Positions 27,179 to 40,589 of a stretch of DNA of 64,000 nt are shown here, piece after piece. The stretch lies in NCBI GenBank assembly GCA_018263395.1, contig JAANXF010000017.1:16001-80000 (forward strand). Direction: 5' to 3'. The notes under the pieces were generated by a model. The model was not told the origin of the DNA. It made no database searches and saw nothing but the letters and a program-made list of their open reading frames with translations. Both the position numbers and the translations under genes were made by a program. The number at the start of each line of letters is the position of its first letter. The first letter of the stretch is position 1. The stretch is from Methanonatronarchaeales archaeon. Lineage in GTDB: Archaea; Halobacteriota; Methanonatronarchaeia; JAANXF01.

Positions 27179-29672
27179 GGCGTCCGAGGCGAACAGGATA
27201 GCTCAGGAGATAGTGGACACCCCCCTCGTGGACAAGATGAGGGAGGCCTACCTCGAGTACTCCATGTCCGTCATCGTCGGGCGTGCGATACCGGACGTCC
27301 GTGACGGACTGAAGCCGGTGCAGCGACGAATCCTCTACGCCATGCACGACATGGGTCTCAGGCACGACAGGCCCTACAAGAAGTCCGCCACCGTGGTCGG
27401 CGAGACGATGGGGAAGTACCACCCCCACGGCGACGCCGCGATATACGACACCCTCGTCAGGATGGCGCAGGACTTCTCCCTCCGCAACCCGCTGGTCGAC
27501 GGTCACGGAAACTTCGGCTCGATGGACGGCGACTCCCCGGCGGCGATGCGGTACACCGAGGCCCGGCTCACGGAGCTCTCCGGCGAACTGCTGGAGGACC
27601 TGGATAAGTCGACGGTGGAGTGGCGCGACAACTTCGACGGCTCCCTGCAGGAGCCCGAGGCCCTTCCGTCGAAGGCCCCGAACCTCCTGATAAACGGCGC
27701 CAGCGGCGTGGCCGTCGGGATGGCCACGAACGTTCCGCCCCACAACCTGCGGGAGGTCTGCGACGCCGGGATACGCCTCATAGACGAACCTGACTGCACC
27801 GTGGAGGAGCTGATGGAGCACGTGAGGGGACCGGACTTCCCGACCGGCGCAACGATAACGCGGGACGGAATACGGCAGGCCTACGCCACGGGCACCGGCA
27901 AGGTCACGATGCGTGGCAGGGCCCGCGTCGAGGAGGGCGAGAAGCGCGACACGGTGGTCATAGAGGAGGTTCCCTACCAGGTCAACAAGGCACGACTCGT
28001 GAAGTCGACCTCGGACCTCGTGACGGAGGGACACCTGGAGGGCATACGGGACCTCAGGGACGAGTCCGACCGCGAGGGGGTACGGGTCGTCCTGGAGCTG
28101 GAGAGAGGGGTCTCGGGACACGCCGTGCTGAACCAGCTCTACGAGTCCACGCGCATGGAGAGCACCTTCGGCGTGATAAACCTCTCCATAGTTGACGGCG
28201 AGCCGCGGCTCCTGACGCTGAAGGAGACCCTCGAGCAGTTCCTGAAGCACCGGGTCGAGGTGGTGGAGCGCCGGACCCGTCACGAGCTCGAGAGGGCGAG
28301 GTCCAGGGCACACGTCCTGAAGGGCCTCAGAACCGCGCTCGCGGACATAGAGGCCGTCGTGGAGCTGATACGGGAGAGCGAGGACACCGCGGAGGCGAGG
28401 CAGGGCCTGATGGAGGAGTTCGACCTGACGGAGGAGCAGGCGAAGGCGATACTGGACATGAGGCTCCGCCGCCTCACCTCCATGGAGGCACGGGAGGTCG
28501 AGGAGGAGCACGCCTCCCTGCTGAGCGACATAGAGCGCTACGAGGAGGTCCTTTCCTCCCGCGAGGAGGTTCACTCCATAATCCGGGAGGAGCTCGCCCA
28601 CCTGAAGGAGGAGTACGGCGACGAGCGCCGCACCGAGATCGTGGAGGGCGGCGACAGGACGATACGCGACCTCGTGGTGGAGGAGACTGTGCTCCTGACG
28701 AGGAGCAGCGAGGACTACGTCAAGAGGACGCCGCTCGTGGATTACAGGCTCCAGAACCGGGCCGGGACCGGGATCATCGGGGCCGACCCGGGCGGCGGCG
28801 AAATCGTCGAGTCCCTGGTGGCCAGCACGCTGGACAGGCTGCTGGTCTTCACGGAGTCGGGACAGGTCTTCGATACCGACGTCTTCAGGCTGCCTGAGAG
28901 GGACCGCACCTCGAAGGGACGGCCCCTCGTCATGTCGCTGCAGGAGCTGGGCGACGAGGAGGTCGCCGCGACGCTGGCCCTGCCCGAGGACGCCGAGGGC
29001 TGCCTGCTCTTCGCCACGAGGCGCGGAAAGGTGAAGAAGACCGACCTCTCCCGCTACGGAAACATCTTCTTCGTCGGCATACGGGCGATAGAGCTGGAGG
29101 AGGGCGACTCCCTGGTTGACGTGGCGCTCGTGAGGGAGGGGCAGGACGTGGTGCTCGGCACCGCCTCAGGCCAGTCGGTGAGGTTCCCGCAGGGCGAGGC
29201 CCGCGAGATGGGTCGCGCCACCCGCGGCGTGCGCGGCGTCGAACTGGACGAGGGGGACGAGGTGACGGCTATGGAGGCCGCGGAGCCCGGCGACATGGTT
29301 CTCTCCGTCACCTCCACGGGGTACGGCAAGATGACGCCCCTGGAGGGCTACAGGCGGACGCACCGCGGCGGAAAGGGCGTGATCAGCGTGAAGACGCGGG
29401 GCGGAAGACTGGCGGGGCTGAGGGCGGTCTCGGGGGACGAGGAGGCCGTGCTCACCACTGCGGGCGGCCGGACCATACGGTTCCCGCTCAGCGGCGTCTC
29501 AACCATGTCCAGAAACACCCAGGGAGTGAAGCTGATGGACGTGAGGGACGACCGCGTCGTGGGCGTCGAGATCGCGCCACCCGGGGAGGACGAGCCGGAG
29601 GAGGTCGAAGAGGTTGAGGGAGAGGCAGAGGATGGAGAGACTGAGGGCGGAGAGGGGGAGAAAGAGAGCTAA
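27168..29672 (+). CDS. gyrA: DNA gyrase subunit A
   Basis: The 834-aa ORF has [19 protein letters not shown], the [10 protein letters not shown] active-site Tyr region and C-terminal beta-pinwheel repeats. Its TTG start overlaps the gyrB end. Confidence 0.93.
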
Positions 29673-29696: not shown

Positions 29697-30036
29697 TCAG
29701 CCGAACTCCTCCTCGTAGATACTCTCCAGTTCATTTTCGAGCCGAGGAAACTCGTCCTTTACGACGTTCCAGACGATGGACCAGTCGATTCCGAAGTAGT
29801 GGTGAATCAGCCTGTCACGCATACCGGCCATCTTTCTCCACTCAACCCCCATGCCTCTTCCTGAACTCGTCCGACAGGTTCTTCGCCGCCTCCCCGATTA
29901 CCTCGAAGCTCCTCGCGAAGGCCCTCTTGAGTACCCCGTCCTCCTCCAGTTCCTCGAGTGTCAGGCCGCGGCTGTTCCTCCTCAGGAAACCGATTTCTTC
30001 TATGACGTGTCTGAGGAACTCCTCGTCGGGCCTCAA
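29697..30036 (-). pseudogene. hepT: HepT/DUF86 HEPN toxin with a +1 frameshift in a homopolymer
   Basis: Frame 1 reads (M)RPDEEFLRHVIEEIGFLRR...FEVIGEAAKNLSDEFRKRHGG-stop. Frame 2 continues VEWRKMAGMRDRLIHHYFGIDWSIVWNVVKDEFP...EEFG-stop and carries the Rx4H motif. The switch is at the C5 run 29846-29850. The span is 340 nt, which is 3n+1. Confidence 0.75.
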
Positions 30037-30331
30037 ACCATATGACTACCTCCCTCTCCACCCGGGGCCTCACGTAGCGGTGCAGACCCCTTTTGGTGAC
30101 GAGGTCCACCCTCTCGTCGAGCACGTCCTCGAGGAAGAACGCCAGGTCCATGAAGTGGTCGAAGGTGCCCTCCCCCGTCCTGAACTCTACGACGATGTCT
30201 ATGTCGCTCCCCTCGACGGCCTCGCCCCTGGCCGCCGAGCCGAAGAGCCCGATGGACTCCACGCCGAACTCTCTCTGCATCCGGGAAAGCTCCTGCCGCA
30301 GGACCCCCAGGACCTCGTCCCTGGAACGCAT
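29807..30331 (-). CDS. mntA: MntA-type nucleotidyltransferase (antitoxin); the ORF lacks a stop at the expected end and reads through hepT
   Basis: The sequence is MRSRDEVLGVLRQELSRMQREFGVESIGLFGSAARGEAVEGSDIDIVVEF...VTKRGLHRYVRPRVEREVVIW. The conserved domain ends near 30040. The frame then stays open to 29807, a high-GC read-through. Confidence 0.7.
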   Translation of the reverse strand: MRSRDEVLGVLRQELSRMQREFGVESIGLFGSAARGEAVEGSDIDIVVEFRTGEGTFDHFMDLAFFLEDVLDERVDLVTKRGLHRYVRPRVEREVVIWFEARRGVPQTRHRRNRFPEEEQPRPDTRGTGGGRGTQEGLREELRGNRGGGEEPVGRVQEEAWGLSGERWPVCVTG

Positions 30332-30523
30332 GGGAACCACTCTCCACTCAGAAAACATAACTCTGCCTGCGAATCCGGCGTCACCCGACTGCACGATTTC
30401 CTCCATCGAGTCGGTAAAGTCTCCAGCGAGAACCCATCCTCCAGGTCCGCAGGGATGGAGGGAGGGCTGTCATCCATCGATTCGAAGCCCCGGATGGGCA
30501 CCGGGGTTTCCGGGGACGTGCAT

Positions 30524-30853
30524 TCAGGCGACTTCGACGCCCGTCTCCACGGCTCTGTAGACGATGTTCGGCCTTCTGTCTCTCCTCTTTTCGAATTCCT
30601 CAGGGGTGAGGCAGATGAACTCCGGGTCGGGAAGCTCGTCGTAGTTCCAGTGGCGGTAGAACAGCTTCGGCCTCGCGTAGTTGCTGACTCCCTCGAAGTC
30701 GGGGGAGACGAGGACGAGGTCCACATCGCTGGAGGGCCTGTAGTCCTCCCCGGCCCTGGAGCCAAAGACTATGACGAGGGCCAGCTCGATGCCCTCCTCC
30801 TCGGCCGTCCTGAGCACGTTTACCCTGGCTTTTTCTACCGTCTCTTTATCCAT
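30524..30853 (-). CDS. Minimal nucleotidyltransferase (MNT)
   Basis: The 109-aa ORF has LVIVFGSRAGEDYRPSSDVDLVLVS and overlaps the upstream HEPN gene. Confidence 0.8.
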   Translation of the reverse strand: MDKETVEKARVNVLRTAEEEGIELALVIVFGSRAGEDYRPSSDVDLVLVSPDFEGVSNYARPKLFYRHWNYDELPDPEFICLTPEEFEKRRDRRPNIVYRAVETGVEVA

Positions 30854-31188
30854 CTCAACAGTTCCTCCACAGCATCGAGCCGGGGTTTCACCTCGTCCAT
30901 ACCCAGGTCCGCGGTATCGGGGTAGCGGACCGCCGTGTACGCCGGGTTCAGGTCCTCCAGGGCCGACATGAACCTCTCAGGCACCTCCAGCTCAACGTAC
31001 AGTCTTACGAGGTCGTGGGTAAAAGAGTATTCGCCTCTCCGCCGAATTTCCAGTGACTTCATGCCCTTCTCCGCCGCCTGGTGACCGAAGAAAATGGCTG
31101 CTTCTCTCTCACCTATTCCCAGATTCTTGTAGGCGGTCTCAAGATCGCGTTCCGCCTGTTTCATCCACCTCTCGGCCTCTCCTTCCAC
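30835..31188 (-). CDS. Classical HEPN domain protein (COG2250-like), partner of the MNT
   Basis: The 117-aa ORF reads WMKQAERDLETAYKNL...AIFFGHQAAEKGMKSL...THDLVRLY...AYTAVRYPD. Confidence 0.8.
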   Translation of the reverse strand: MEGEAERWMKQAERDLETAYKNLGIGEREAAIFFGHQAAEKGMKSLEIRRRGEYSFTHDLVRLYVELEVPERFMSALEDLNPAYTAVRYPDTADLGMDEVKPRLDAVEELLRWIKRR

Positions 31189-31219
31189 ATATCAATTATG
31201 CGTGGCCCCTCACTTTAAA

Positions 31220-31375
31220 CTACAAGTCTTGTCCACAGTGGACCGATGTGGCCGAGATACGGCAGGGACTCTCTCCGAGCTTCCTGAGGTTCTTCCGGAC
31301 GATTCTCCGGGATTTATCGTCGAGACTTTCTATGAACTCGTTGGCGTCGGGGTGCAGCAGGACGTCGTAGCTCAT
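31220..31375 (-). pseudogene. RelE/ParE-like toxin, apparently 3'-truncated (51 codons)
   Basis: My own translation is MSYDVLLHPDANEFIESLDDKSRRIVRKNLRKLGESP, then CRISATSVHCGQDL-stop. The N-terminal half matches the RelE/ParE pattern, but the C-terminal catalytic half is missing. It is ATGA-coupled to the upstream small ORF and is not in the ORF track. Confidence 0.45.
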
Positions 31376-31500
31376 TCGAGCTCAACGAGCTCGTCCCTGT
31401 CCATCCCCTCGGTCTCCCGCATCTTCTCGGCGAGCCTCTTCCGGCTGTGCTCCCGGATCAGCTCGGCCAGGATGTCGTAGTCGTAGTAGGTATCCCCCAT
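31372..31500 (-). CDS. Small (42-aa) putative antitoxin upstream of the RelE-like remnant
   Basis: The sequence is MGDTYYDYDILAELIREHSRKRLAEKMRETEGMDRDELVELE-stop. Its stop overlaps the ATG of the downstream relE-like ORF. It is not in the ORF track. Confidence 0.4.
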   Translation of the reverse strand: MGDTYYDYDILAELIREHSRKRLAEKMRETEGMDRDELVELE

Positions 31501-31508
31501 GCCTCGGG

Positions 31509-31903
31509 TTACTGTAACTCTGGTGCCGCCTTTTTGGCCTCTTTGAGAAACTCCTCCGCGTCTCGGAGGAAACGCTCGGCGTCCTCCTGGTCGTCGAGGA
31601 AGACGACCTCGTAGTCGGCCTCCTGCCTCTTGGCCTGGTACCTCGATAACTTGCCGTAGAACTCCTCGTCCATGAGTTCCTCCTCGTGGATCACGTGTTT
31701 TCCGAAGAGGGCGATGGCTCCCGACTGCGACCTTGGCGAGAGCTCCAGCCTCGCCAGAAGCTCGAAGACTGCGTGATACATGCAGTAGAAGGCCCTGTCC
31801 TCGACGGTCCTGAGCGACCGGTCGTTCTCGAAGCGAAGGCGAACTCGGCCTCCGCGAGCATCTCCTCAGCCACGTCGAAGTGGTCAGACTGCTGCCCGTC
31901 CAC
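31509..31903 (-). pseudogene. HEPN domain protein disrupted by a 5-bp tandem duplication
   Basis: The N-terminal frame reads MDGQQSDHFDVAEEMLAEAEFAF. The C-terminal frame reads ENDRSLRTVEDRAFYCMYHAVFELLARLE...RQEADYEV. The two are offset by the duplicated cgaag/cgaag at 31829-31838. The span is 395 nt, which is 390+5. Confidence 0.75.
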
Positions 31904-32309
31904 TCCTCAGCACCTCCTCGGTGAAGCGGGTGGACCTCGTCCTCTCGAACTCCTCCTCGGTCCTCACGACGGGGGCGATGTGGACGCCGTGCTCCAGGGC
32001 GACCTTCGAGGCGACCTCGTACACCCTCTCCTTCTCCCTCTCCGTCCCCACCACGACGAAGACGTCCACGTCGCTGAATCGCCGCTCCTCACCCCTCGCA
32101 ACCGACCCGAAAAGGACGAGCTCCTGGAGAGAACCCTCCATCTCCTCCTTCACCCTTTCGGCGAACTCGAAAACTCTCCTGAGAGTTTTCTTCGATGCAG
32201 AAGATCTCCGATCTTTGAATCCTCGAAGGCACTCCTCTGTGCCGGGTCTTCTCCATGTCTCTGGTAACTCAATCTCTCCCCCGCAATCATACGTCTGCCC
32301 CGGAACCAC
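31884..32309 (-). CDS. Nucleotidyltransferase (MNT), partner of the disrupted HEPN gene
   Basis: It has LQELVLFGSVARGEERRFSDVDVFVVV. The start is uncertain; the GTG at 32309 is the only upstream start codon in frame. Confidence 0.7.
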   Translation of the reverse strand: MVPGQTYDCGGEIELPETWRRPGTEECLRGFKDRRSSASKKTLRRVFEFAERVKEEMEGSLQELVLFGSVARGEERRFSDVDVFVVVGTEREKERVYEVASKVALEHGVHIAPVVRTEEEFERTRSTRFTEEVLRSGRAAV

Positions 32310-32426
32310 GAAACAGGAAATCCCCGGTCCCGAATCCCGCGAAAGCGAACATCTGACGCGACCGCTCCACGGCCACCGAGGGGCTTTTCCGGTTTGGGCC
32401 TAGCCGTCTCCGTATTCCCGCCTGTT

Positions 32427-32446
32427 TAACCGTGTCTAACCGTGTC
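32427..32446. repeat. Perfect tandem 10-bp direct repeat TAACCGTGTC x2
   Basis: The repeat taaccgtgtc taaccgtgtc lies in the 386-bp non-coding leader of the low-GC cassette. Confidence 0.6.
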
Positions 32447-32647
32447 CCTACCGCCCCGGAACGCGGTCATGGCGCATTGACCCGGCGTTCAAAACATGTC
32501 TTAACACCCCGTATTGGCACATCTCCCTCAAGATAACAGCCCAGAAAACCCCTATTCTGTGCTGTTTTGAGGAATAATCAGGAAAACTGCCGCCATCAAA
32601 ACGCTGTTACGGCTCTTAACTGTCCCTGTTTTAGTCAGTTAACGGGC

Positions 32648-32679
32648 ATAACACCAGATAACACCGATAGTTTTAATAA
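32648..32679 (+). promoter_or_regulatory. Direct repeats ATAACACC (x2, 10-bp phasing) abutting a TATA-like TTTTAATAA; putative promoter/operator of the cassette
   Basis: The sequence gcATAACACCagATAACACCgatagTTTTAATAAgcgccctgacataacaATG places the TATA-like element about 20 nt before the ATG at 32696, so the transcript is leaderless or near-leaderless. Confidence 0.5.
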
Positions 32680-32695
32680 GCGCCCTGACATAACA

Positions 32696-33739
32696 ATGGG
32701 TATCATGGGGAGAAAGTACCTCGTTGACATTCCGGCCCACCTGGCCCGCAGGACGGATGCCCTGATAGACTCCGGTGACTACGAGTCCGTCTCCGCGTTT
32801 GCACGTGCTGCCTTCGAGAACCAGCTCCTTCTCCACGCCTCAAATGAAGAAACAATTCTAGTCGATGATGCTCCGGATACCGGAACAGCTCCAACCCAAG
32901 AATCCGCTTCAGATGATGAGCAGGCGATTGATAGTTGGCGGGAGGCGCTGTCACTGTCCAAGCTAAACGCCGAAAGCGTGGAAACAGCCGAGGCCGAGCC
33001 GATAACCGACGGGCCGATATGGGGGCAGTTCAACAAGCTCCTCCCCATCAAGATAGGGGTGCGGGGTCTGGCGGTCCTCCAGTCGGATGAGGGCGGGCCG
33101 GTCCCACTCGAAGAATTCCGGAAAATCGTCGGTGAGCAGGCATCGCAGGTCCGCACACACCTAGGGAGGCTAGACGATGCGCAGGGCAGGCGCAGGGGCG
33201 AGAAGATGGCCGCCGGACTGCCGGACGGAAGCAGTGAGAAGTCCGTAAGGCGCTACCGCAACCACTTCCTAGGCTCCCTGGACAGCGACGGGGACATGCG
33301 GGGTGCGCTGGCCGAGATGGGATTTGTCAGGCTGTATGTGGACGGCGACGGGGAGATGGCATCCCTGACCGATGCGGGACTCGACTTTGCTGAGATCGCC
33401 AGCCCGGTTCTGGATGGGAAGGATGAGCCGACCATGACGCTCTCCGAGGATGAGAGGAAATTCCTGATTCGCCACATGGCCGAGAACATCCCGGGGGAGA
33501 TTGAGGGCATGAGGCAGATTCTGGACTGGATAGAGAATGGCCACAACACTCCTAACAAGTTAAATAAAAAGGTCGCAACAATGAATGAGGAATGGTCGGA
33601 AAAGATGGCTAAAACTATGAGAACGGGGCTACTCGGAAGGATGTACGACCTCAGGCTGGTCGAGAGGGAGTGGGAGGGGATACGGGTGACCTATTCATCC
33701 AAAGACCAAGAATCGCTCATTGCTTCCGGGGAGGTGTAG
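32696..33739 (+). CDS. Ribbon-helix-helix N-terminal domain protein with probable winged-helix C-terminal region; function unknown
   Basis: The N-terminus MGIMGRKYLVDIPAHLARRTDALIDSGDYESVSAFARAAFENQLL is a typical RHH/CopG beta-alpha-alpha pattern. An acidic linker and an unassigned roughly 250-aa region follow. I prefer the ATG at 32696 to the track start at 32567. Confidence 0.6.
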   Translation: MGIMGRKYLVDIPAHLARRTDALIDSGDYESVSAFARAAFENQLLLHASNEETILVDDAPDTGTAPTQESASDDEQAIDSWREALSLSKLNAESVETAEAEPITDGPIWGQFNKLLPIKIGVRGLAVLQSDEGGPVPLEEFRKIVGEQASQVRTHLGRLDDAQGRRRGEKMAAGLPDGSSEKSVRRYRNHFLGSLDSDGDMRGALAEMGFVRLYVDGDGEMASLTDAGLDFAEIASPVLDGKDEPTMTLSEDERKFLIRHMAENIPGEIEGMRQILDWIENGHNTPNKLNKKVATMNEEWSEKMAKTMRTGLLGRMYDLRLVEREWEGIRVTYSSKDQESLIASGEV

Positions 33740-33744
33740 CCATT

Positions 33745-35745
33745 ATGGAAGACAAGTTTGAGGCATATGAAAAGGGCTCTAGAGATACCACGGTTAACTG
33801 GGATAACACTCTGAAGGGGATTAAGGATAGCTATGACCAGCACAGGGGTCTTGTCCATGGCATCCAGAAAGATGCAATCCAAAACGGGTGGGATGCCCGC
33901 ATTAATAGAGAGCAGGGAACTGGTTGGAAGTTTACATTCGAGCTCGTTAGGGATGGGGATGATGCGCTCTTTGTGATGAGGGATGAGGGCACGACTGGTC
34001 TTACTGGCAGAATCTTAGAAGAGGAGGAATACACCGAAGAGCTGCCACCGGGGGAGCGATGGGCGCGATTTGAGAGCCTAGCGTTTATAAAGGAGGAGGC
34101 TGGAGGATCGCTTGGATCAAGAGGGCAGGGAAAATTCATATTTGTTGCTGGTTCGGGCAATAAGACAATAGTTTATGATACCTATCGTGAGGACGGCACG
34201 TACCGAGCAGGGATGCGTAGAGTTAAAAAAACAAGATCTCCTGTGGTAGCTTGGGACGGTGAAGAGGGAAGGGAGAAGTTCGACGATCTTACCGGAAACC
34301 TCCTTGAGCCGTTTCAGTCGGTTGGAACCCGTGTTGTCATAGTTGATCCGGTGGATGAGCTCTTAGAGTCTGTTGAATCAGGAGGTTTTCTCCGATATGT
34401 TGGGGAAACTTGGTGGGAGATTATTCTAAAATACGATGCAACAATCGAGCTAGTTGTTGATGGTGAGACATTTACTGCTACTATACCTGAGGAATTCAAC
34501 CTCGTTGAGGAGGATACCGACAATCTTCGATGTTGGACTAGGGAGTTCGAAATGGTTGAGGACGAGTACAAGATTAAAAAGCTCCACATAATCAGTTCCA
34601 ATGACGATGTACCAAATGATTTAAATGGAATTTCGATTCAACGGGGTGGGATGAAGGTTGATGTGATTGAGCCAAAATACCTTCCCAGAGATATCTCAAA
34701 AAGTATCTATGGCTACATCACTGTCGATGATGATGTTGAAGATGAGCTGAAGCGAGCTGAGAATCTGACACATTACGGCTTCAGTTATCGCTATAAAGCG
34801 CCCAAAGCAATCAGGAATTACGTTGAAAAACAGTGCGAGAAATTTGCCCAAGAGAAGCTCGGGTGGCAGAGCTCTAGGCAGGCTGTAAGGGCCAGAAGGC
34901 AGAGAAACGCTGAGAGGATGGCACTAAGGCAGATAAACAGAATAGCGGAGGAGTTCGATTTCCCCTCCACGCCCGGGATGGGTGGTGATTCAGGAGGATC
35001 AGGGGGAACAGGTGGAAACGGGGGCGGCGGTGGCAGTCCAAAACCGCTTCGTATTTGGATGCCTGACTTGAAGCTGCCTCGTGAGGACGATTTGAGGGTA
35101 GATTATGGTGAAAGCGTTGGCGACATCCAAGCCAAAGCAATAAATGAAAGCGCTGACCCTCTTGAGGTTAAGCTAAAAATTTACATCCGCAAGAATGATG
35201 AACTCAAAAGAGTCTATTTGAACGAGGAGCTCTGGCTCTCCTCCGGAACAAGTAGTGATAGCTATGGACCTTTTGAACAGCACTTTGAGGAGGAAGAATT
35301 TGATCCTGGAAGATACACGGTAGTTGCACGTCTAATCTTATTGAGTGATGAGGACTTTGGGGGTGTCCTTGACGAGAAAAGAAAGTCTTTTTATCTAGAA
35401 GAAGAGCCACCCTCAGGTGGAGGAATTTTCGAAGATTGCGAAGCCGTCGAATTCGATACAACATCTCGGCTGATGGGCTGGGTAACCGGGGGCGATGAGG
35501 GGGGTTATCGTCTTCAGTACAATGTCCTTCACCCAGCGTATAAAGACGTTTGGGAGAGCGAGGAAGACCTAGCGGAATACCTATTTCGCATTATGGCCCT
35601 CGAACTTTATCGAGTGGACCTTGAACGTGGGGAGCCGGTCATTTTTACGGATTTGGGAGGGGAAGTATCACCAGGGGAAATTGCGTATGAAATAGTCGAA
35701 GAACTTAGTGAATTCACGTATCAATACCATGCGGGTGAGGGGTAA
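33745..35745 (+). CDS. GHKL (Bergerat-fold, MORC/HATPase_c_3-like) ATPase with Gly-rich linker and beta-rich C-terminal region
   Basis: The Bergerat motifs are readable. N-box: GIQKDAIQNGWDA. G1: VMRDEGTTGLTG. G2: GGSLGSRGQGKFIF. Motif IV-like: VGTRVVIVD. These are followed by GGDSGGSGGTGGNGGGGGS and a roughly 250-aa tail. GGAGGTG lies 9 nt upstream of the ATG at 33745. Confidence 0.7.
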   Translation: MEDKFEAYEKGSRDTTVNWDNTLKGIKDSYDQHRGLVHGIQKDAIQNGWDARINREQGTGWKFTFELVRDGDDALFVMRDEGTTGLTGRILEEEEYTEELPPGERWARFESLAFIKEEAGGSLGSRGQGKFIFVAGSGNKTIVYDTYREDGTYRAGMRRVKKTRSPVVAWDGEEGREKFDDLTGNLLEPFQSVGTRVVIVDPVDELLESVESGGFLRYVGETWWEIILKYDATIELVVDGETFTATIPEEFNLVEEDTDNLRCWTREFEMVEDEYKIKKLHIISSNDDVPNDLNGISIQRGGMKVDVIEPKYLPRDISKSIYGYITVDDDVEDELKRAENLTHYGFSYRYKAPKAIRNYVEKQCEKFAQEKLGWQSSRQAVRARRQRNAERMALRQINRIAEEFDFPSTPGMGGDSGGSGGTGGNGGGGGSPKPLRIWMPDLKLPREDDLRVDYGESVGDIQAKAINESADPLEVKLKIYIRKNDELKRVYLNEELWLSSGTSSDSYGPFEQHFEEEEFDPGRYTVVARLILLSDEDFGGVLDEKRKSFYLEEEPPSGGGIFEDCEAVEFDTTSRLMGWVTGGDEGGYRLQYNVLHPAYKDVWESEEDLAEYLFRIMALELYRVDLERGEPVIFTDLGGEVSPGEIAYEIVEELSEFTYQYHAGEG

Positions 35746-36405
35746 ATGGCGGTTATAATCCGAGAGACTCGAGAAATAGCCGGTAAAAGAAGTGAGGTTA
35801 AGATATACAGGACAGATGGCCTTCTGACAAGGGAGGAGAAACAAAGGGCCGAGGAACTCGACGACCTGATTCAAAGGGAGATGAGTGCTATAGTCGAAGA
35901 CCTAAAAGAAAAGTCCTTAATAACAGGAGAAGGGGAGAAAAAGAATTTGGAAATTTGGTACAAAATCGGGGGGGGTCTACAGTTCATAGATCAAACAGAT
36001 TTAATCGAAGATCGAGACAGAAAGTACATATGGAGGGCTATTTACGACCATTCCGGCCCCCTCCATACGGGGGATATACCAGTAAGGGCAGATCGCCCTA
36101 AAAACAACGATTTCAGATATGCATATTTACTTGCTAAAAACTTCGATTGGGAATTCGTTGAATCAGGTGGAACATGGACTACTTGGGGTGAATTTTTTGA
36201 CTCGCCAGTTATACGTAATGACCAACGAATCATCGACTGGTTGGGAACTGTCAAAGAGAGGAGAGGGGACCAAGGTCTACAGGATTGGATACGGCCACTT
36301 ACGGTAGAAATTCGAAGAGAACTTAAAAATGTGGATACCGGTGTATTCGAAAAAGCAAGATTAGTAGAGAGGCTAGAACGTATCTATAATTCGATCAAAG
36401 GGTAG
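35746..36405 (+). CDS. Hypothetical 219-aa protein, translationally abutting the GHKL ATPase gene
   Basis: Its ATG immediately follows the upstream TAA (taaATG). I can recognise no catalytic motif. It is Trp-rich and helical-looking (EIWYKIGGGL, TWTTWGEFF, IIDWL). Confidence 0.55.
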   Translation: MAVIIRETREIAGKRSEVKIYRTDGLLTREEKQRAEELDDLIQREMSAIVEDLKEKSLITGEGEKKNLEIWYKIGGGLQFIDQTDLIEDRDRKYIWRAIYDHSGPLHTGDIPVRADRPKNNDFRYAYLLAKNFDWEFVESGGTWTTWGEFFDSPVIRNDQRIIDWLGTVKERRGDQGLQDWIRPLTVEIRRELKNVDTGVFEKARLVERLERIYNSIKG

Positions 36406-36413
36406 TATTCGGA

Positions 36414-37031
36414 CTAATTGGCGTAAATACATGCTTTATTTAGGGTGCAGTTATTGCAATCGGGATTAGGCCTGCAATATACTGCAGGGAAATCCAGTAA
36501 CGCCAGATTATAAGTTCGATAGTCTGAGTTTGGTAGTAACTTCTGTGCCTTTTTAGCAATTTTTTTCTGATCCGATATCCCAAAATACCTAGAAATCAGA
36601 CGCCTCACATTGGTATCAAGGATTGGAAATCTCCTATTTGCAGCAAAGCAAGCTGTCGCGTTTGCGATGTAGTCTCCGAGCTCATCTATCCCTTTGAGCT
36701 CCTCCGGGTTCGTTGGTGTATTTCCACCGTATTTTTCCCCCACCTCCTCGACGGTCTCGTGCATCATCTTGAGTCGACGATTCACAAGTCCCAGGGTTTC
36801 CAGAATCTCCCTTAGGTCGTCCTCGTTGGCCCGGCTGAGGTCCTCCATCGTGGGATACCTTTTAATGAATTCATTGTAAACCCCCTCAACCTGATCGGCC
36901 CGTGTTCGCCTCAACATGATTTCGGCCATCAGAACCCGGTATGGGTCATCCGTGGCACGCCAGGGATAGCTTCTCAGGTTCTCCTCGGCGAACTCCAGCA
37001 GCGTGTTTACGAAGAACTCCTCTTCCTTCAT
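36414..37031 (-). CDS. HhH-GPD superfamily DNA glycosylase (MutY/Nth/Mig-like) with 4Fe-4S loop
   Basis: It has YPWRATDDPYRVLMAEIMLRRTRADQV, an HhH region, the catalytic-Asp segment PILDTNVRRLISRYFG and the C-terminal Cys cluster CRPNPDCNNCTLNKAC. It overlaps the methyltransferase stop by 4 bp. Confidence 0.8.
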   Translation of the reverse strand: MKEEEFFVNTLLEFAEENLRSYPWRATDDPYRVLMAEIMLRRTRADQVEGVYNEFIKRYPTMEDLSRANEDDLREILETLGLVNRRLKMMHETVEEVGEKYGGNTPTNPEELKGIDELGDYIANATACFAANRRFPILDTNVRRLISRYFGISDQKKIAKKAQKLLPNSDYRTYNLALLDFPAVYCRPNPDCNNCTLNKACIYAN

Positions 37032-38407
37032 TGGGCCTCGACGGAGGCCGGAACGCTCTGCTTGGAAACCGGCTCGACTTGGGCGCCCGCGAACTTTCTG
37101 AGAAGCGACTCGGCCATCCTTTTAGCGAGGAGCGGCGGCACGGCGTTCCCGATCTGCCCGTACTGGGCGGTTCTGGGGCCGCTGAATCTGTAGTCGTCCG
37201 GGAAGGACTGAATGCGGGCTGCCTCCCTCACTGTGAACGTTCTTGCCTGCTTATCATCTGGGTGTATGAAGCGGTTGCCGTCCTTTGCGAGATGAGCGAA
37301 GATGGTTGTGCTGGGCGCATTCCAGCTCTGCTTTCGGTACTTGTCCTTGAAGGAGCTCATGTCGTACTTTATACAATTCCTGATGTCCTGCTCATAATCA
37401 CCCTCAACCACGTCCTTCGCAGTGTGCCCCTGTTTCATGGCCCGGTACAGTCGCTGGTCCCTTCGCATATGGCTCCGAGCGATGTGGTCTGTGAGGTGCT
37501 CGGGGATATCCGGTACAACGAAATCCAAGAACTCTTGGCCCGTTTCATCAAGGTTCCTGTAGTGACTGAAGAAGCAATCCTTGTGATACTCGACCTGCTT
37601 CTCACCGTTGCGCCTACCCTCGTTAATCTTTCTGACTTTATCCCTCTCATCGTCGGGGATATCTGTAAATGTGTACTTTGCCTCCAACTCGGGAAGGTCA
37701 CCAATTGTGTCCCAGAGGGTGACTTGGGGCTTCTTCCCGTCTCCGTGCGTCCTTTCCGGGAAGGGGTTTTTGATGGACTGGTTATTTCCTATCAGGAAGA
37801 TTCTACGCCTGTTCTGGGGCACACCGTAGTCGGCGGCGTTGAGCTTGAGGTACGTATCTTGGATGAGCTTATCCTGTCTTTCGTTCTCGAAAGTGTACCC
37901 GATGCTCTCAAGGTCCTGACGAATTATCTGGACGTACGGGGTGCCGTCCTCACCCTTCTTTGATGCCAGCCCGAGAACGTTTTCAAAAACTATGAAGCTC
38001 GGGCTGAGGGTTTTTACTAGGTCGATGTAGGCCATATACAGGTCATCACGCGAATCGTTTTCAAATTTTGAGTTCCCGACGCCGTACCCGGAGCGTGGGC
38101 CGATTAGGGAGAACGACTGACACGGGGGACCACCGATGATAACATCTACCTGACCGTTACATAGGTCGAGAATCTCCTTTTTGGTATCCTCATCGTTGAG
38201 GTCCCCCAAGATTACCCTGTTGGGGTCCTTGTCTCTCTCTTTAAAGTGGGAACGCAGTGTCTGACAGGCGTATTCATTTTTATCCACAGCACACACGGTC
38301 TCGAACGAGTAACCGTCAATCTCGTCTGCAAGCTCGAAGCCGAGGTAAAAACCCCCTCCTCCTGCGAAGAGGTCTAACACTCCGAGCTTCTCGGACATCC
38401 CGTCCAA
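37028..38407 (-). CDS. dcm: DNA (cytosine-5)-methyltransferase
   Basis: All signature motifs are present: I LDLFAGGGGF, IV GGPPCQSFS, VI FVFENVLG, VIII QNRRRIFLIG, IX REAARIQSFPDDY and X GNAVPPLLA. There is a long variable (TRD) region between VIII and IX. Confidence 0.93.
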   Translation of the reverse strand: MDGMSEKLGVLDLFAGGGGFYLGFELADEIDGYSFETVCAVDKNEYACQTLRSHFKERDKDPNRVILGDLNDEDTKKEILDLCNGQVDVIIGGPPCQSFSLIGPRSGYGVGNSKFENDSRDDLYMAYIDLVKTLSPSFIVFENVLGLASKKGEDGTPYVQIIRQDLESIGYTFENERQDKLIQDTYLKLNAADYGVPQNRRRIFLIGNNQSIKNPFPERTHGDGKKPQVTLWDTIGDLPELEAKYTFTDIPDDERDKVRKINEGRRNGEKQVEYHKDCFFSHYRNLDETGQEFLDFVVPDIPEHLTDHIARSHMRRDQRLYRAMKQGHTAKDVVEGDYEQDIRNCIKYDMSSFKDKYRKQSWNAPSTTIFAHLAKDGNRFIHPDDKQARTFTVREAARIQSFPDDYRFSGPRTAQYGQIGNAVPPLLAKRMAESLLRKFAGAQVEPVSKQSVPASVEAQ

Positions 38408-38610
38408 TTGGTCCTAGGGGATAATTTTCTTTGAGGTCGCCCAATAGCCGTACTTCTAGAGGGCGTTCTCTGGACCTCCATACAAACCGGTGGAGGAGAT
38501 GGGCGTGGTTGGTGCTGAAAGATGAATAGTTTCACACTCCTCTTCCCGTAAGGAGTTTCGTATCTGCGGGAGAAGATGACCCGGGGAATACCGGCCTAGG
38601 AGGAACACAA

Positions 38611-38880
38611 ATGTCGCCCGATGTAATGGATTATTCGAAGCTTTCCACGGAGGCGTTCAGGGCTGTCTGGCAGACGCTTCTCGCACTGGCCCCCGGCCTG
38701 CACCCGGACGAGATAGGGCAGGAGGGTGGCGGATGGGGGGAGCACCCCGTTATCAGCGCGATTGGACAGGAGGCCCTGCGTCGATACGAAGCCGGCGATT
38801 TCGACGCCGACGACCTCTACGACTTCGAGGCCCAGCGCTCCGGTCTCCCGCACAGGGAGTTGTATCCCGGCTACGGGTAA
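38611..38880 (+). CDS. Hypothetical 89-aa protein
   Basis: The ATG ORF is preceded by ctaggaggaacacaa and has backbone-like GC. I recognise no motif. Confidence 0.4.
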   Translation: MSPDVMDYSKLSTEAFRAVWQTLLALAPGLHPDEIGQEGGGWGEHPVISAIGQEALRRYEAGDFDADDLYDFEAQRSGLPHRELYPGYG

Positions 38881-38962
38881 GACGGGTTCAGCTGGCCGGG
38901 TCTCCGGGTCTAAACCGCTGGCCGGAATCATTTTGACTTATCGGTATGAGGGTTTCGAGGGG

Positions 38963-39259
38963 ATGCTTGTAACCGCGATGGACCCGCTGGGGAACCTGAT
39001 AGAGCTGGGCGAGGAGAGGTGGGGACACATAGTCACGGGGCACCCGGAGATGGAGAGCAGGCTAAAGGAGGTTGAAACCGCTCTGAGGGACCCGGACCTG
39101 GTGCGGAGGAGCAGGTACGACGACGAGGTAAACCTGTACTACAGGCGGATCGGCGAGGATTACGTCTGCGTCGTGGCGAATCCGCTCAAGGGATTCGTCC
39201 TCACGTCCTACGTGACAGAAGCTATAAAGGAGGGAGCGGAGATATGGAGGAAGGGATGA
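38963..39259 (+). CDS. Small putative toxin-like protein paired with a DUF2283 protein
   Basis: The sequence is MLVTAMDPLGNLIELGEERWGHIVTGHPEMESRLKEVETALRDPDLVRRS...VCVVANPLKGFVLTSY. It overlaps the downstream DUF2283-like ORF. The family assignment (DUF4258-like) comes from memory of gene pairing only. The start is uncertain (an alternative TTG lies near 38933). Confidence 0.45.
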   Translation: MLVTAMDPLGNLIELGEERWGHIVTGHPEMESRLKEVETALRDPDLVRRSRYDDEVNLYYRRIGEDYVCVVANPLKGFVLTSYVTEAIKEGAEIWRKG

Positions 39260-39450
39260 GGGTCCACTACGACGAGGAGGGCGACGTGCTCTACCTCAAT
39301 CTGAAGCCCGGAGCAGAGGCCGTCGCCGAGGAGACCGGGGACGAGACGCTCGTCCGGAAGGACCCAGAGACGGGGGAGATCGTCGGCTACACCGTTATGC
39401 ACTTCCGTAAGAGAGCCGGCCAGAAGAAGGGAATCGAACTCGAAGCCTGA
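39244..39450 (+). CDS. DUF2283-like small protein (putative antitoxin)
   Basis: RVHYDEEGDVLYLNLKPG...DPETGEIVGYTVMHF matches the YDxExDxLYIxL pattern of DUF2283. Confidence 0.6.
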   Translation: MEEGMRVHYDEEGDVLYLNLKPGAEAVAEETGDETLVRKDPETGEIVGYTVMHFRKRAGQKKGIELEA

Positions 39451-39456
39451 AGTACC

Positions 39457-39588
39457 CGCCTCACCGATTATCTCTATCCTCCTGATTACGGCGTCCTGAA
39501 GCTGGCGTGATTCGAGAAAATCGTCCCTGGTGCTTCCCTCCACGTAGCCCTCTATCAGCTCCACGGATTCGAGGAGGGGAGACATCAT
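39457..39588 (-). pseudogene. N-terminal remnant (about 44 codons) of a HepT/DUF86 HEPN gene
   Basis: MMSPLLESVELIEGYVEGSTRDDFLESRQLQDAVIRRIEIIGEA is the conserved DUF86 N-terminal half. The RxxxxH half is missing, and the ORF continues as antisense of the DUF2283 gene. Confidence 0.6.
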
Positions 39589-39611
39589 TGTTGGACCGTG
39601 TACATGTGGTG

Positions 39612-39829
39612 ATGGAGTTCTACGCCTCTGAGGAGCTCAGGGACGACAGGGAGCGGGGAGAGGAGGTGTACGGGAAGTTCCTGGAGGAGATGGAGGCGGA
39701 TCACCCGTCAAAGTCGTGGCTATCGACTTCGACGAGGGGGAAGTCATCCGCGTCGCCGAGGGGGACGTCGAGGAAATCAGCCGCAGGGTCAAGGGCGGCA
39801 CGGCGGAGAGACACGGCCTGACCGGATGA
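39612..39829 (+). pseudogene. Small (about 72-aa) protein with an apparent 1-nt deletion
   Basis: The sequence MEFYASEELRDDRERGEEVYGKFLEEMEADHP is followed, in another frame, by the sensible continuation VKVVAIDFDEGEVIRVAEGDVEEISRRVKGG...-stop. The switch is near 39702-39709. The span is 218 nt, which is 3n-1. Confidence 0.4.
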
Positions 39830-39926
39830 TGCTTACGGCTTTCCTAAAAAGTAGTCCTGTTCCAACGTCCAGCCGTATCTCCGGACACTCGAAACAAATT
39901 TACGTGATTGTATCTAATCACACCCT

Positions 39927-40181
39927 ATGGCGAAGATGAGGTCGGTGCAGGTCCGGTTTCCGGAGGAGGAGCTGAGGCGCATCGACAGGTACGTGGAGAG
40001 GGGAGAGTACCCCTCGCGGTCGGAGTTCATCAGGGACGCCGTTCGTAAGGCGGAGGCCATCCGTTCCATCGGGACCATGAGGCGCCTCGTCGAGGATGAG
40101 GGCCTGACCGAGCAGGAGCTGGTCGAGGGTGGAATGGAGGTCCGGGAGGAGCTGTTCAGAGAGCTCGTCGGGGACGGGTGA
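39927..40181 (+). CDS. Ribbon-helix-helix (CopG-like) antitoxin
   Basis: SVQVRFPEEELRRIDRYVERGEYPSRSEFIRDAVRKA is a classic RHH. It lies directly upstream of a PIN gene. Confidence 0.8.
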   Translation: MAKMRSVQVRFPEEELRRIDRYVERGEYPSRSEFIRDAVRKAEAIRSIGTMRRLVEDEGLTEQELVEGGMEVREELFRELVGDG

Positions 40182-40182
40182 C

Positions 40183-40589
40183 GTGAAGGTCCTGCTGGAT
40201 TCCTCGACGCTCTACTCCGCTATCGCCTACGACGGAAACGAGAGCGACCTGCTGAAGGCTGTCATCGAGAGGCACCAGCCGGTCATCTCCGACTACGTCC
40301 TCGAAGAGCTGCGGAGGAACTTCTCCCGGAAGCTCTCGGGCCACCGCAGGGACGAGGTCCTGCCGAACTGGAAACCCTCGCCTCCGCCTGCGAGGTCAGG
40401 GAGATGGCCGAGTACTCGGGAAATATCGATGAAGCGAGGTCGATTATAAGCGACAAGGACTCACCGGTCCTCGCGTGCGCCATGCTTCCCGAAGTAGACC
40501 TGCTTATCACCAGCGACGCAGAGTTCGGAGAGGCGGAGCACCCCGACGTGAGGGTAGCCTTCCCGGATGGTGCGTGGGAAGCGATATAG
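40183..40589 (+). pseudogene. vapC: PIN-domain (VapC-like) toxin with an apparent 1-nt deletion
   Basis: The N-terminal frame reads (V)KVLLDSSTLYSAIAY...VISDYVLEELRRNF...RRDEVL. The C-terminal frame reads AELETLASACEV...DKDSPVLACAMLPEVDLLITSDAEF. The switch is near 40358-40365. The span is 407 nt, which is 3n-1. Confidence 0.7.

What the first reader, a model, noticed from the sequence alone, without database searches (positions are those of the whole stretch)
29697..40589. An accessory/defence island of about 11 kb wedged between the gyrBA and top6BA topoisomerase operons
Everything between the gyrA stop (29672) and the top6B promoter (about 40680) is accessory. Its contents, in order, are:
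- three MNT/HEPN pairs;
- a RelE-like remnant with a small antitoxin;
- the GHKL-methyltransferase cassette;
- a DUF2283 pair;
- a HepT remnant;
- an RHH-PIN pair.

No integrase, transposase, tRNA or obvious flanking direct repeat is visible, so the way the island grows is unclear. Clustering of TA modules with restriction-modification-like genes is the established hallmark of defence islands. That raises the prior that the unassigned genes inside are defence-related.
Basis: partly seen in the sequence, partly recalled or inferred. Interest (0 to 1): 0.6.

Follow-up and report, generated by a model that had tools for sequence, protein, structure and literature searches.

The report
Old, still-changing island between topoisomerase operons
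The 11 kb between the gyrase and topoisomerase VI genes of this uncultured archaeon is a real accessory island. It is old and layered rather than one recent insert: mostly dead toxin-antitoxin genes surround a DNA-methylase scaffold whose neighbouring ATPase module has been swapped for a different one in a related archaeon.

Summary
29673-40756 holds only accessory genes, and the inventory is largely right.

**Insertion.** In two class-level relatives, gyrB-gyrA-top6B-top6A is one cluster with only 4 or 104 nt between gyrA and top6B. The 11.1 kb is therefore an insertion.

**Age.** It is not young. A closer relative (Logan contig L169, GyrA 70.6% identical) has a 10.6-kb island at the same junction.
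- Shared genes: decayed MNT/HepT pair 1, MNT 3, gene A, mig-dcm and u89.
- Different genes: other TA modules, and a PADLOC PDC-M33-like module where the window has B-C.
- The swap borders lie inside gene A and inside mig.

**Composition.** Only about 33.7-36.9 kb is strongly foreign (GC3 0.41-0.56 against 0.89 for the backbone). The TA zones are backbone-like.

**Gene state.** Five of seven toxin genes are frameshifted or truncated. Gene-end stubs mark module junctions. I found no integrase, tRNA, att-like repeat or flank duplication.

**The cassette.** B is a GHKL+S5 ATPase by fold. C has a new all-alpha fold. B-C pairs recur across many phyla, often followed by dcm and mig.

**Reading.** This is a long-lived accretion and replacement hotspot with a restriction-modification-like GHKL system. 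The defence function is inferred, not shown. The scan had already noted the cassette on this same DNA.

The parts
27168..29672 (+). gyrA, left flank (backbone)
   Evidence: 834-aa ORF, GC3 0.89. Followed directly by top6B in G001 and G003.
29697..30036 (-). HepT 1 (toxin), one frameshift near 29842-29852
   Evidence: Two ORFs hit PF01934 at profile positions 2-51 and 78-120. Frames read. Identical in Logan contig L163. Its 3' end is conserved in L169.
30034..30331 (-). MNT 1 (antitoxin). The ORF runs on to 29807 with no stop at the usual end.
   Evidence: PF01909 7.6e-14. Its 5' part is 89% identical in nucleotides to L169 3583-3676, where it is fused to the HepT 1 tail by an internal deletion.
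30384..30441 (-). 3' tail of a lost HEPN gene (ortholog of the 108-aa HEPN in L169)
   Evidence: 82% nucleotide and 74% amino-acid identity to the end of the L169 HEPN gene.
30524..31188 (-). HEPN 2 (30835-31188) plus MNT 2 (30524-30853). Intact pair, absent from L169.
   Evidence: PF05168 6.7e-23 over the full profile; PF01909 3.1e-7. No counterpart in L169.
31202..31500 (-). 42-aa small ORF (31372-31500) plus a 5' stub of an unidentified toxin-like gene (31202-31375) with an in-frame stop, cut off by HEPN 2
   Evidence: No family hit. Frames. No paralog in the genome.
31509..32141 (-). MNT 3 (31884-32141, intact) plus HEPN 3 (31509-31903, frameshifted near 31850)
   Evidence: PF01909 3.1e-11. 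PF05168 covers only profile positions 42-115, with the N-terminal part in another frame. MNT 3 is 49% identical to the L169 MNT.
32240..32659 (.). Spacer with no homology in L169. Logan contigs break here (32322 and 32385).
   Evidence: Not repeated elsewhere in the genome.
32696..33739 (+). Gene A, 347 aa, with an RHH-like N-terminus seen by eye. Shared scaffold gene.
   Evidence: No family hit. 70% identical to L169 A. GC3 0.70. Precedes B in 14 of 75 loci.
33745..35745 (+). Gene B, 666 aa: GHKL+S5 ATPase, helical linker, Gly-rich loop, beta-sandwich and helical C-terminus
   Evidence: Model pLDDT 82.5. Foldseek probability 1.0 to Topo VI-B, Hsp90 and MORC. Invariant GHKL motifs. 441 homologs. 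GC3 0.465.
35746..36405 (+). Gene C, 219 aa: beta-hairpin plus all-alpha fold, with no known relative
   Evidence: pLDDT 87. No PDB fold or sequence match. 232 cluster representatives; the 150 listed are 79-274 aa, most 190-270 aa, with no longer fusion protein among them. Follows B in 59 of 75 loci. GC3 0.41.
36414..37031 (-). mig-type HhH-GPD mismatch glycosylase. Only its first ~43 codons are shared with L169 at nucleotide level.
   Evidence: PF00730 3.6e-17. PADLOC 'Type II nicking endonuclease' model 1.3e-39. mutY model below its cut-off. 54% amino-acid identity to L169.
37028..38407 (-). dcm, C5 cytosine methyltransferase. Shared scaffold gene.
   Evidence: PF00145 1.6e-65. 77% amino-acid and 74% nucleotide identity to L169. 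GC3 0.685.
38611..38880 (+). u89, unknown 89-aa gene. Shared with L169, where it is 136 aa.
   Evidence: 78% nucleotide and 78-83% amino-acid identity. No family hit.
38963..39450 (+). 98-aa BECR-like candidate toxin (38963-39259) plus DUF2283 (39244-39450). Intact pair, absent from L169.
   Evidence: PF10049 1.9e-8. Weak PBECR2 hit, E 0.047. A 40%-identical paralog lies beside another DUF2283 at C17:63812-64305.
39442..39588 (-). HepT 5' stub (first ~45 codons), cut off at the end of the DUF2283 gene
   Evidence: PF01934 profile positions 1-40 only. Frames.
39588..39829 (+). Frameshifted, truncated small gene (39588-39760) fused to the 3' tail of a lost RHH_12 antitoxin gene (39763-39829)
   Evidence: 77% nucleotide identity, with a 1-nt gap, to an intact 83-aa paralog on C5. 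The tail is 87% identical to the L169 RHH_12 gene.
39927..40589 (+). RHH antitoxin (39927-40181, intact) plus PIN toxin (about 40178-40589, frameshifted near 40350). Absent from L169.
   Evidence: PF01402 2.5e-8; weak PIN_3 hit. Frames. Same sequence in Logan contig L162.
40757..43667 (+). top6B-top6A, right flank (backbone)
   Evidence: Upstream region and gene start are conserved in L169. GC3 0.89.

Best explanation
The gyrA-top6B junction of this archaeal lineage is a long-lived accretion and replacement hotspot that needs no integrase.

Shown:
- The ancestral state in the class is a contiguous gyrB-gyrA-top6B-top6A cluster.
- An island was already present in the common ancestor of this genome and the L169 organism.
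- Since then, modules have been added, swapped and truncated in both lineages.
- Junctions fall inside resident genes and leave 5' or 3' gene stubs.
- The most recent layer in the window is B, C and the 3' two-thirds of mig (33682-36903, GC 0.466). It sits between the older scaffold genes A and dcm, which have diverged about as much as gyrA.
- In L169 the same slot holds a different, distantly related GHKL module resembling PADLOC PDC-M33.
- Most TA toxins are inactivated.

Inferred:
- Exchange happens by homologous recombination in the conserved scaffold genes (A on the left, mig 5' end plus dcm on the right). Illegitimate recombination accounts for the breaks inside TA genes.
- A-B-C/dcm/mig works as a restriction-modification-like system. 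Dcm marks self DNA. Mig repairs the T:G mismatches that m5C deamination creates. A, with its RHH-like N-terminus, acts as controller. The B dimer is an ATP-driven GHKL clamp which, together with C, acts on unmethylated incoming DNA. It may do this through a nuclease site not yet recognised, or through MORC-like trapping or compaction.
For: Ancestral adjacency:
- G001: gyrB-gyrA, 104 nt, top6B-top6A.
- G003: the same order with a 4-nt gap.

The junctions are real:
- Logan contigs L163 (25746-38709) and L162 (32385-46405) span both sides at 99.97-99.99% identity with no gaps.

Old shared island:
- L169 has gyrA (70.6% amino-acid identity) and the top6B start 10.6 kb apart.
- Homology is collinear for A (74% nt), mig 5' end plus dcm (74% nt), u89 (78% nt) and MNT 3.
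- Pair 1 is also present there, as a deletion relic, though its order relative to the HEPN tail differs.
- The contents otherwise differ.

Layering:
- GC3 values: gyrA/top6B 0.89, TA genes 0.70-0.88, A 0.70, dcm 0.685, mig 0.56, B 0.465, C 0.41.
- Tetranucleotide distance reaches the 98th-99th percentile only over the cassette.

Stubs and lesions.

No mobility signals. No scanned island product matched an integrase or transposase family.

Cassette:
- B has a GHKL+S5 fold and invariant motifs.
- B-C is paired in 59 of 75 loci. dcm is present in 33 and mig in 20, in many phyla and with overlapping genes.
- The slot-mate in L169 hits PDC-M33A at 3e-19 and PDC-M33C at 5.5e-20. It aligns with B over GHKL motifs II and III and over the S5 region.
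- MORC and paraMORC ATPases have been predicted to work in RM operons with cytosine methylases and VSR repair genes (PMC2292703).
Against: - Only one closer relative exists, so the order of events is not polarised. Either B-C or the M33-like module could be the older occupant.
- The order of the HEPN tail and pair 1 differs between the two lineages and is not explained.
- No nuclease, helicase or methyl-reading domain was recognised in A, B or C.
- The general-base position of the B N-box is Asp, not the usual Glu.
- Distant B-C pairs stand alone without dcm or mig. A methylase is therefore not obligatory for the family.
- The toxin-versus-antitoxin decay bias (5 of 7 against 1 of 7) rests on too few genes to be significant.
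- hhalign probabilities for B against the L169 proteins are low, because the target is a single sequence.
Confidence: 0.7

Rival explanations
1. A single mobile element, such as an integrative element or a degraded provirus, inserted recently between gyrA and top6B and brought all 11 kb with it.
For: GC dips across the interval. It holds accessory genes only.
Against: No scanned product matched an integrase or transposase family, and there is no tRNA, att-like repeat or flank duplication. The TA zones are backbone-like in composition. The island, with a shared scaffold, already exists in a relative whose GyrA is only 70.6% identical. B has no relative in plasmid, phage or viral-contig collections.
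Confidence: 0.04
2. The region is an old, fixed part of the chromosome with housekeeping or regulatory roles, not a variable island.
For: Its position and five or six genes are conserved between the window and L169. Their divergence is similar to that of gyrA.
Against: Class-level kin have no insert. More than half of the content differs between the two lineages. Many genes are frameshifted or truncated. The gene families are TA and RM types.
Confidence: 0.08
3. The cassette is a methylation and repair unit rather than a defence system. B-C would be a MutL-like matchmaker that helps Mig repair the T:G mismatches caused by Dcm methylation, as MutL stimulates Vsr in E. coli.
For: B has the GHKL+S5 architecture shared with MutL. 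In the close clade B-C is tightly linked to dcm and mig, with overlapping genes. One locus sits between mutS and uvrC. MutL-Vsr cooperation is discussed in PMC2292703.
Against: Distant B-C pairs occur without dcm or mig, sometimes beside Abi_2, GmrSD or IS66 genes. The distribution across phyla is patchy. In L169 B-C is replaced by a PADLOC candidate defence module while dcm and mig stay. A methylase that exists only to create damage for its partners to repair has no evident benefit.
Confidence: 0.15
4. The juxtaposition is an assembly or binning artefact of the MAG.
For: The genome is a 78%-complete MAG. Logan contigs break at 32322/32385 and at 38709/38837.
Against: Other Logan contigs from different runs cross each of those points and both island borders without a gap. 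L169, from another study, shows the same gyrA ... A ... dcm ... top6B layout.
Confidence: 0.01

Closest known systems
Defence islands and integrase-free defence hotspots between conserved core genes (Makarova et al. 2011; later hotspot surveys in E. coli and Pseudomonas; cited from my own knowledge)
   Same: TA, RM-like and candidate defence genes cluster at one fixed junction between core genes. Content turns over between relatives, and there is no dedicated recombinase.
   Different: The flanks are two essential topoisomerase operons that form one cluster in kin. Most toxins are dead. A methylase and regulator scaffold persists while the effector module next to it is exchanged. The host is an archaeon with a small genome.
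MORC / paraMORC GHKL ATPases of predicted restriction-modification operons (Iyer, Abhiman and Aravind 2008, PMC2292703)
   Same: A GHKL+S5 ATPase is linked to a cytosine methyltransferase and a very-short-patch-type repair gene. The distribution is patchy and laterally mobile.
   Different: B has no sequence-profile match to HATPase_c_3 or any Pfam family. There is no helicase and no recognisable nuclease. The repair gene is an HhH-GPD glycosylase rather than Vsr. B has an obligate partner C with a new fold and a distinct beta-sandwich C-terminus.
PADLOC candidate system PDC-M33 (PADLOC-DB v2, untested candidate)
   Same: It occupies exactly the same slot between A and mig-dcm in the relative L169. 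Its A component aligns with B over GHKL motifs II and III and over the S5 region.
   Different: B, C and A give no PADLOC hit even at E up to 10. PDC-M33 has three components including DUF6339, and C is unrelated to DUF6339.
MntA/HepT and HEPN/MNT toxin-antitoxin pairs (type VII TA; HEPN survey in PMC3710099)
   Same: Adjacent minimal nucleotidyltransferase and HEPN/HepT genes. The RX4HXY motif is present in HepT 1.
   Different: Two of the three toxins are frameshifted, and a further HepT is only a 45-codon stub.
M.MthTI / Mig.MthI-type pairing of a C5 methyltransferase with a T:G mismatch glycosylase (cited from my own knowledge)
   Same: Overlapping dcm and a short HhH-GPD glycosylase of the MutY/Nth type. 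By eye the glycosylase carries a four-Cys motif of the kind that binds an Fe-S cluster.
   Different: No classical type II endonuclease accompanies them. The partner is the B-C GHKL module.
Tiamat, a GHL ATPase-nuclease defence protein (bioRxiv 10.64898/2026.09.30.754977)
   Same: A GHKL-family ATPase in a defence context, sometimes near methyltransferases. A dimeric clamp model has been proposed.
   Different: Tiamat carries a C-terminal PD-(D/E)xK nuclease (NOV_C/DUF3883) and TPR-like core folds. B shows none of these and has no PADLOC hit.

Membership tests
Defence island / variable hotspot | Cluster of TA, RM or defence-type genes between core genes | tested here: met
   3 of the genome's 10 MNT-domain matches lie in 2.7 kb.
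Defence island / variable hotspot | Content differs between related genomes at the same junction | tested here: met
   Window compared with L169. The junction is empty in G001 and G003.
Defence island / variable hotspot | Atypical composition of the whole island | tested here: not met
   Only about 33.7-36.9 kb is an outlier (98th-99th percentile). The TA zones lie at the 48th-81st percentile.
Integrative mobile element | Integrase, recombinase or transposase gene | tested here: not met
   No such family among the island products scanned.
Integrative mobile element | tRNA target or flanking direct repeats / target duplication | tested here: not met
   The only tRNA is at 54024. No significant flanking repeat or flank copy.
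MNT/HEPN (MntA/HepT) toxin-antitoxin | Adjacent MNT and HEPN/HepT genes | tested here: met
   Three pairs.
MNT/HEPN (MntA/HepT) toxin-antitoxin | Intact toxin reading frame | tested here: not met
   Met only for pair 2. HepT 1 and HEPN 3 are frameshifted.
MNT/HEPN (MntA/HepT) toxin-antitoxin | Toxicity neutralised by the cognate MNT | not testable with these tools
   Needs expression in a laboratory strain.
MORC/paraMORC GHKL ATPases of RM operons | Bergerat-fold ATPase with conserved N-box, G1 and G2 motifs | tested here: met
   Invariant D43/N47, D80/G85-G88 and G124/G127/G129-K130. Fold matches to Topo VI-B, Hsp90 and MORC at probability 1.0. The N-box acid is Asp, not Glu.
MORC/paraMORC GHKL ATPases of RM operons | S5 / transducer domain after the GHKL domain | tested here: met
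   Alignments of 360-440 columns to Hsp90, MORC and TRAP1 N-terminal plus middle domains. Invariant R300 and near-invariant K304.
MORC/paraMORC GHKL ATPases of RM operons | Sequence membership in a described MORC or paraMORC family (for example Pfam HATPase_c_3) | tested here: not met
   No Pfam, NCBIfam, PADLOC or PDB sequence hit.
MORC/paraMORC GHKL ATPases of RM operons | Operon partners: DNA methylase and VSR-type repair gene | tested here: met
   dcm in 33 of 75 loci and mig in 20 of 75, often overlapping. The repair gene is HhH-GPD rather than Vsr.
MORC/paraMORC GHKL ATPases of RM operons | Associated SF2 helicase and/or nuclease | tested here: not met
   None found in the window cassette or in the conserved B-C-dcm-mig loci.
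Type II restriction-modification with V-type repair gene | Methyltransferase plus restriction endonuclease of matching specificity | tested here: inconclusive
   The methyltransferase is present. No recognisable endonuclease was found, and B-C is only a candidate.
PADLOC PDC-M33 | Proteins match the PDC-M33A and PDC-M33C models | tested here: not met
   The window's A, B and C give no such hit, even at E up to 10. The slot-mate in L169 does match.

The most novel reading that the evidence does not exclude
B-C is the core of an undescribed two-gene immune module: a GHKL+S5 clamp ATPase plus a partner with a new fold. It is known almost only from uncultured bacteria and archaea of many phyla. 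It plugs into a Dcm/Mig(/A) 'self-marking' scaffold as an exchangeable effector. The window and L169 would then capture two distantly related GHKL effectors swapped into the same scaffold by recombination inside the flanking genes. That would be a modular methylase-plus-clamp form of restriction, possibly acting without a classical nuclease, in the manner of MORC proteins.
Probability: 0.45. Interest if true: 0.72.

Novelty: new variant of a known kind. Interest (0 to 1): 0.52.

Why it matters
**How accessory DNA accumulates.** The island shows, with mapped breakpoints, how accessory and defence genes can gather and turn over at one spot for a long time without any recombinase. The spot lies in the middle of what is otherwise a single topoisomerase gene cluster.
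- Modules land inside resident TA genes.
- Toxins decay.
- A methylase and regulator scaffold persists while its effector is exchanged.

**An unannotated protein pair.** The island also points to a widespread pair of proteins with no family annotation: the GHKL ATPase B (441 homologs at 90% clustering) and the new-fold protein C (232 clusters at 50%). This pair is linked to cytosine methylation. It could give an experimental route into what prokaryotic MORC-like ATPases do with methylated or unmethylated DNA, a question open since 2008.

Tried and rejected
- **Closer relatives via GyrA in JGI metagenome contigs:** the best match was 50% identity, so nothing useful.
- **GTDB relatives:** only class-level kin exist. 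G002 has unrelated housekeeping genes after gyrA.
- **Strain variants in Logan assemblies of the same study:** all are identical to the window.
- **Repeated spacers or 'gene-start stubs' between TA cassettes,** as earlier notes report elsewhere in this genome: no self-similarity inside the island.
- **Copies of the gyrA 3' end or the top6B 5' end inside the island,** as seen near gyrA in other genomes of the scan: none found.
- **Cassette-border sequences elsewhere in the genome:** not repeated.
- **Rfam families and promoter/terminator scans:** nothing above background.
- **tblastx of the island against the genome:** swamped by high-GC compositional hits and discarded.
- **B in plasmid, phage and viral-contig collections:** no match.
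- **C against PDB by fold and by profile, and distant C relatives against Pfam:** nothing.
- **C against DUF6339 of L169:** no relation.
- **'RelE-like' label for the 51-aa stub:** no support from Pfam, NCBIfam or paralogs.
- **WonAB (PMC12137116) as a possible GHKL precedent:** its ATPase is an ABC/OLD type, so it is not relevant.

Full report
**Setting.** The window is contig C9:16001-80000 of a 1.17-Mb, 78%-complete archaeal MAG. It is the only representative of its family in GTDB, and its nearest species representatives are class-level (GyrA about 51% identical). Genome GC is 0.627.

**Observation.** Between the gyrA stop (29672) and top6B (start 40757 by the gene call on Logan contigs, 40685 for the longest ORF) lie about 11.1 kb.
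- HepT+MNT (pair 1);
- HEPN+MNT (pair 2);
- a 42-aa ORF plus a 51-aa stub;
- HEPN+MNT (pair 3);
- three genes without any family (A 347 aa, B 666 aa, C 219 aa);
- an HhH-GPD glycosylase overlapping a C5 methyltransferase on the other strand;
- an 89-aa gene;
- a 98-aa protein plus DUF2283;
- a HepT N-terminal stub;
- RHH plus PIN.

No tRNA lies nearer than 54024. No island product that I scanned matched an integrase or transposase family. There are no significant direct or inverted repeats, no Rfam hit, and no copy of either flank inside the island.

**State of the genes.** Six-frame reading shows the following.
- HepT 1 has one frameshift near 29850.
- HEPN 3 has one near 31850.
- PIN has one near 40350.
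- The 51-aa 'RelE-like' ORF is a 5' stub with an in-frame stop that ends where HEPN 2 begins. No profile or paralog supports the RelE label.
- The HepT stub (39442-39588) ends where DUF2283 ends.
- A small gene at 39588-39760 has a 1-nt gap relative to an intact 83-aa paralog on contig C5 and is also truncated.

Intact pairs are HEPN 2/MNT 2 and the 98-aa protein with DUF2283. The second pair has a paralogous pair on C17.

Counted this way, 5 of 7 toxin genes are disabled against 1 of 7 antitoxin genes. That is a trend only. The lesions are not assembly errors, because Logan assemblies of five other runs match the window at 99.94-100% with no gaps.

**Is it an insertion?** Yes. In G001 the order is gyrB, gyrA, 104 nt, top6B, top6A. 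In G003 it is the same with a 4-nt gap. A third relative, G002, has unrelated housekeeping genes after gyrA. JGI metagenome contigs held nothing closer than 50% GyrA identity.

**Is it recent?** No. This is the main correction.

The only close homolog of gene A (70% identity) lies on Logan contig L169, which comes from a different study. L169 starts in gyrA (70.6% amino-acid and 73% nucleotide identity) and ends in the top6B start, with 10.6 kb between them.

Homologous segments:

| Segment | Identity |
|---|---|
| Relic of pair 1: MNT 1 5' end fused to the HepT 1 3' end by an internal deletion | 84-89% nt |
| MNT 3 | 49% aa |
| A plus 36 nt upstream | 74% nt |
| First ~43 codons of mig plus all of dcm | 74% nt; Dcm 77% aa |
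| u89 | 78% nt |
| 3' tail of an RHH_12 antitoxin gene | 87% nt |
| top6B upstream region | 71% nt |

The 3' tail of the L169 HEPN gene also survives in the window, at 30384-30441, but in a different order relative to pair 1.

Modules not shared:
- In the window only: HEPN 2/MNT 2, the 42-aa ORF plus stub, B-C, the 98-aa/DUF2283 pair, the HepT stub and RHH/PIN.
- In L169 only: a MazE/PIN_3 pair, a PIN_2 gene, and four ORFs between A and mig. These four match the PADLOC candidate system PDC-M33: 304 and 330 aa against M33A (3e-19 and 3e-4), and 224 aa against M33C/DUF6339 (5.5e-20).

The island therefore predates the split of two lineages that have diverged as far as 70% GyrA identity. Both lineages have kept remodelling it since.

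**Layering.** Composition agrees with the comparison.
- GC3 values: gyrA and top6B 0.89, TA genes 0.70-0.88, shared scaffold genes A 0.70 and dcm 0.685, mig 0.56, B 0.465, C 0.41.
- The unshared block 33682-36903 has GC 0.466, against 0.577 and 0.536 for the shared flanks.
- Tetranucleotide distance to the genome is ordinary over the TA zones (48th-81st percentile). It is extreme only over the cassette (98th-99th percentile).
- The swap borders lie in the last ~20 codons of A and inside mig.

That pattern fits replacement by homologous recombination within conserved scaffold genes. This is an inference. At four other junctions a resident gene is cut and leaves a 5' or 3' stub, which points to illegitimate joins rather than site-specific integration.

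**The cassette.**
- B has 441 homologs (at 90% clustering) at 42-58% identity or better. None is annotated.
- An AlphaFold model built from 39 sequences (pLDDT 82.5) matches Topo VI-B, Hsp90/GRP94/TRAP1 and MORC2/3/4 at probability 1.0 over 360-440 aligned columns.
- The N-box (D43...N47), G1 (D80, G85-L-T-G88), G2 (G124-x-R-G-x-G-K130) and R300/K304 are invariant or nearly so.
- No sequence profile recognises B.
- The C model is confident (pLDDT 87): a beta-hairpin plus helices. It has no match in PDB by fold or by profile.
- A full HMMER scan with the C profile finds 232 cluster representatives. The 150 listed are 79-274 aa, most 190-270 aa, with no longer fusion protein among them; the ten distant ones I scanned have no significant Pfam domain.

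Across 75 loci from many bacterial and archaeal phyla, B is followed by C in 59, by dcm in 33, by mig in 20, and preceded by A in 14. In the close clade the order is B-C-dcm-mig with overlapping genes. Distant B-C pairs stand alone, sometimes beside Abi_2, GmrSD or IS66 genes. B is absent from the plasmid, phage and viral-contig collections.

The L169 slot-mates align with B over 'TTGLTG' and 'GxGK' and over the S5 segment. The hhalign statistics are weak because the target is a single sequence. On that basis the two lineages appear to carry different, distantly related GHKL modules next to the same Dcm.

**Mechanism (inferred).**
- Dcm methylates host DNA.
- The glycosylase corrects T:G mismatches from m5C deamination. 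It matches the PADLOC 'Type II nicking endonuclease' model at 1e-39. It scores below the cut-off on the mutY model, which is 277 positions long against its 205 aa.
- A is a controller, judged by its RHH-like N-terminus, which I saw by eye only.
- B2 with C is an ATP-driven clamp acting on unmethylated foreign DNA.

This follows the model proposed for MORC and paraMORC ATPases in RM operons (PMC2292703) and echoed for Tiamat (bioRxiv 10.64898/2026.09.30.754977). The missing nuclease is the main gap. A repair-only role is the main rival.

**Verdict.** The island is real, and the label 'accessory/defence island' is fair. It is best described as an old hotspot without an integrase. It holds a mostly dead TA array and a methylase scaffold whose GHKL effector module is exchangeable. 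As an island it is ordinary. The mapped effector swap and the unannotated B-C family are the parts worth following. The scan had already flagged the cassette on this same DNA (e1-2768705).

Noticed in passing
window 23609-27178: gyrB is 1189 aa, against 627 aa in G001. It carries an intein with LAGLIDADG and HTH domains, according to the Pfam list for the same gene on L163. Kin G002, G003, G004 and G017 show intein-sized inserts in gyrA, gyrB or top6B.
   Followed up: no
window 32322/32385 and 38709/38837: Independent Logan assemblies of several runs break at the same places beside the cassette. These stretches are not repeated elsewhere in the MAG.
   Followed up: partly
L169:5507-7403: The PDC-M33A-like GHKL protein of the relative is split into two ORFs (304 and 330 aa) that overlap by 11 nt. 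It is either a frameshifted pseudogene or a natural two-gene form.
   Followed up: no
G000 C5:33945-34533: An intact 83-aa paralog (77% nucleotide identity) of the island's frameshifted small gene lies just downstream of an MNT-domain gene. It may be an unrecognised antitoxin-like family that travels with MNT modules.
   Followed up: partly
G000 C17:62634-64305: A second TA cluster holds an MNT (69% nucleotide identity to MNT 3), a DUF2283 and a 40%-identical paralog of the 98-aa BECR-like protein. This is probably the TA array described in earlier notes on this genome.
   Followed up: partly
L007:4330-13691 (ENA contig ctg833068): In one bacterial genome the B-C-dcm-mig cassette sits exactly between mutS and uvrC, so DNA-repair genes lie on both sides.
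   Followed up: no
window 29807-30406: The MNT 1 reading frame has no stop at its expected end and runs about 75 codons into HepT 1 in another frame. Its upstream 25 codons are the tail of a lost HEPN gene in the same frame.
   Followed up: partly
window 4597-4833: Another MNT-domain match (C9:20597-20833) lies next to the low-GC tmk insert noted earlier, so the window holds several separate accessory inserts.
   Followed up: no
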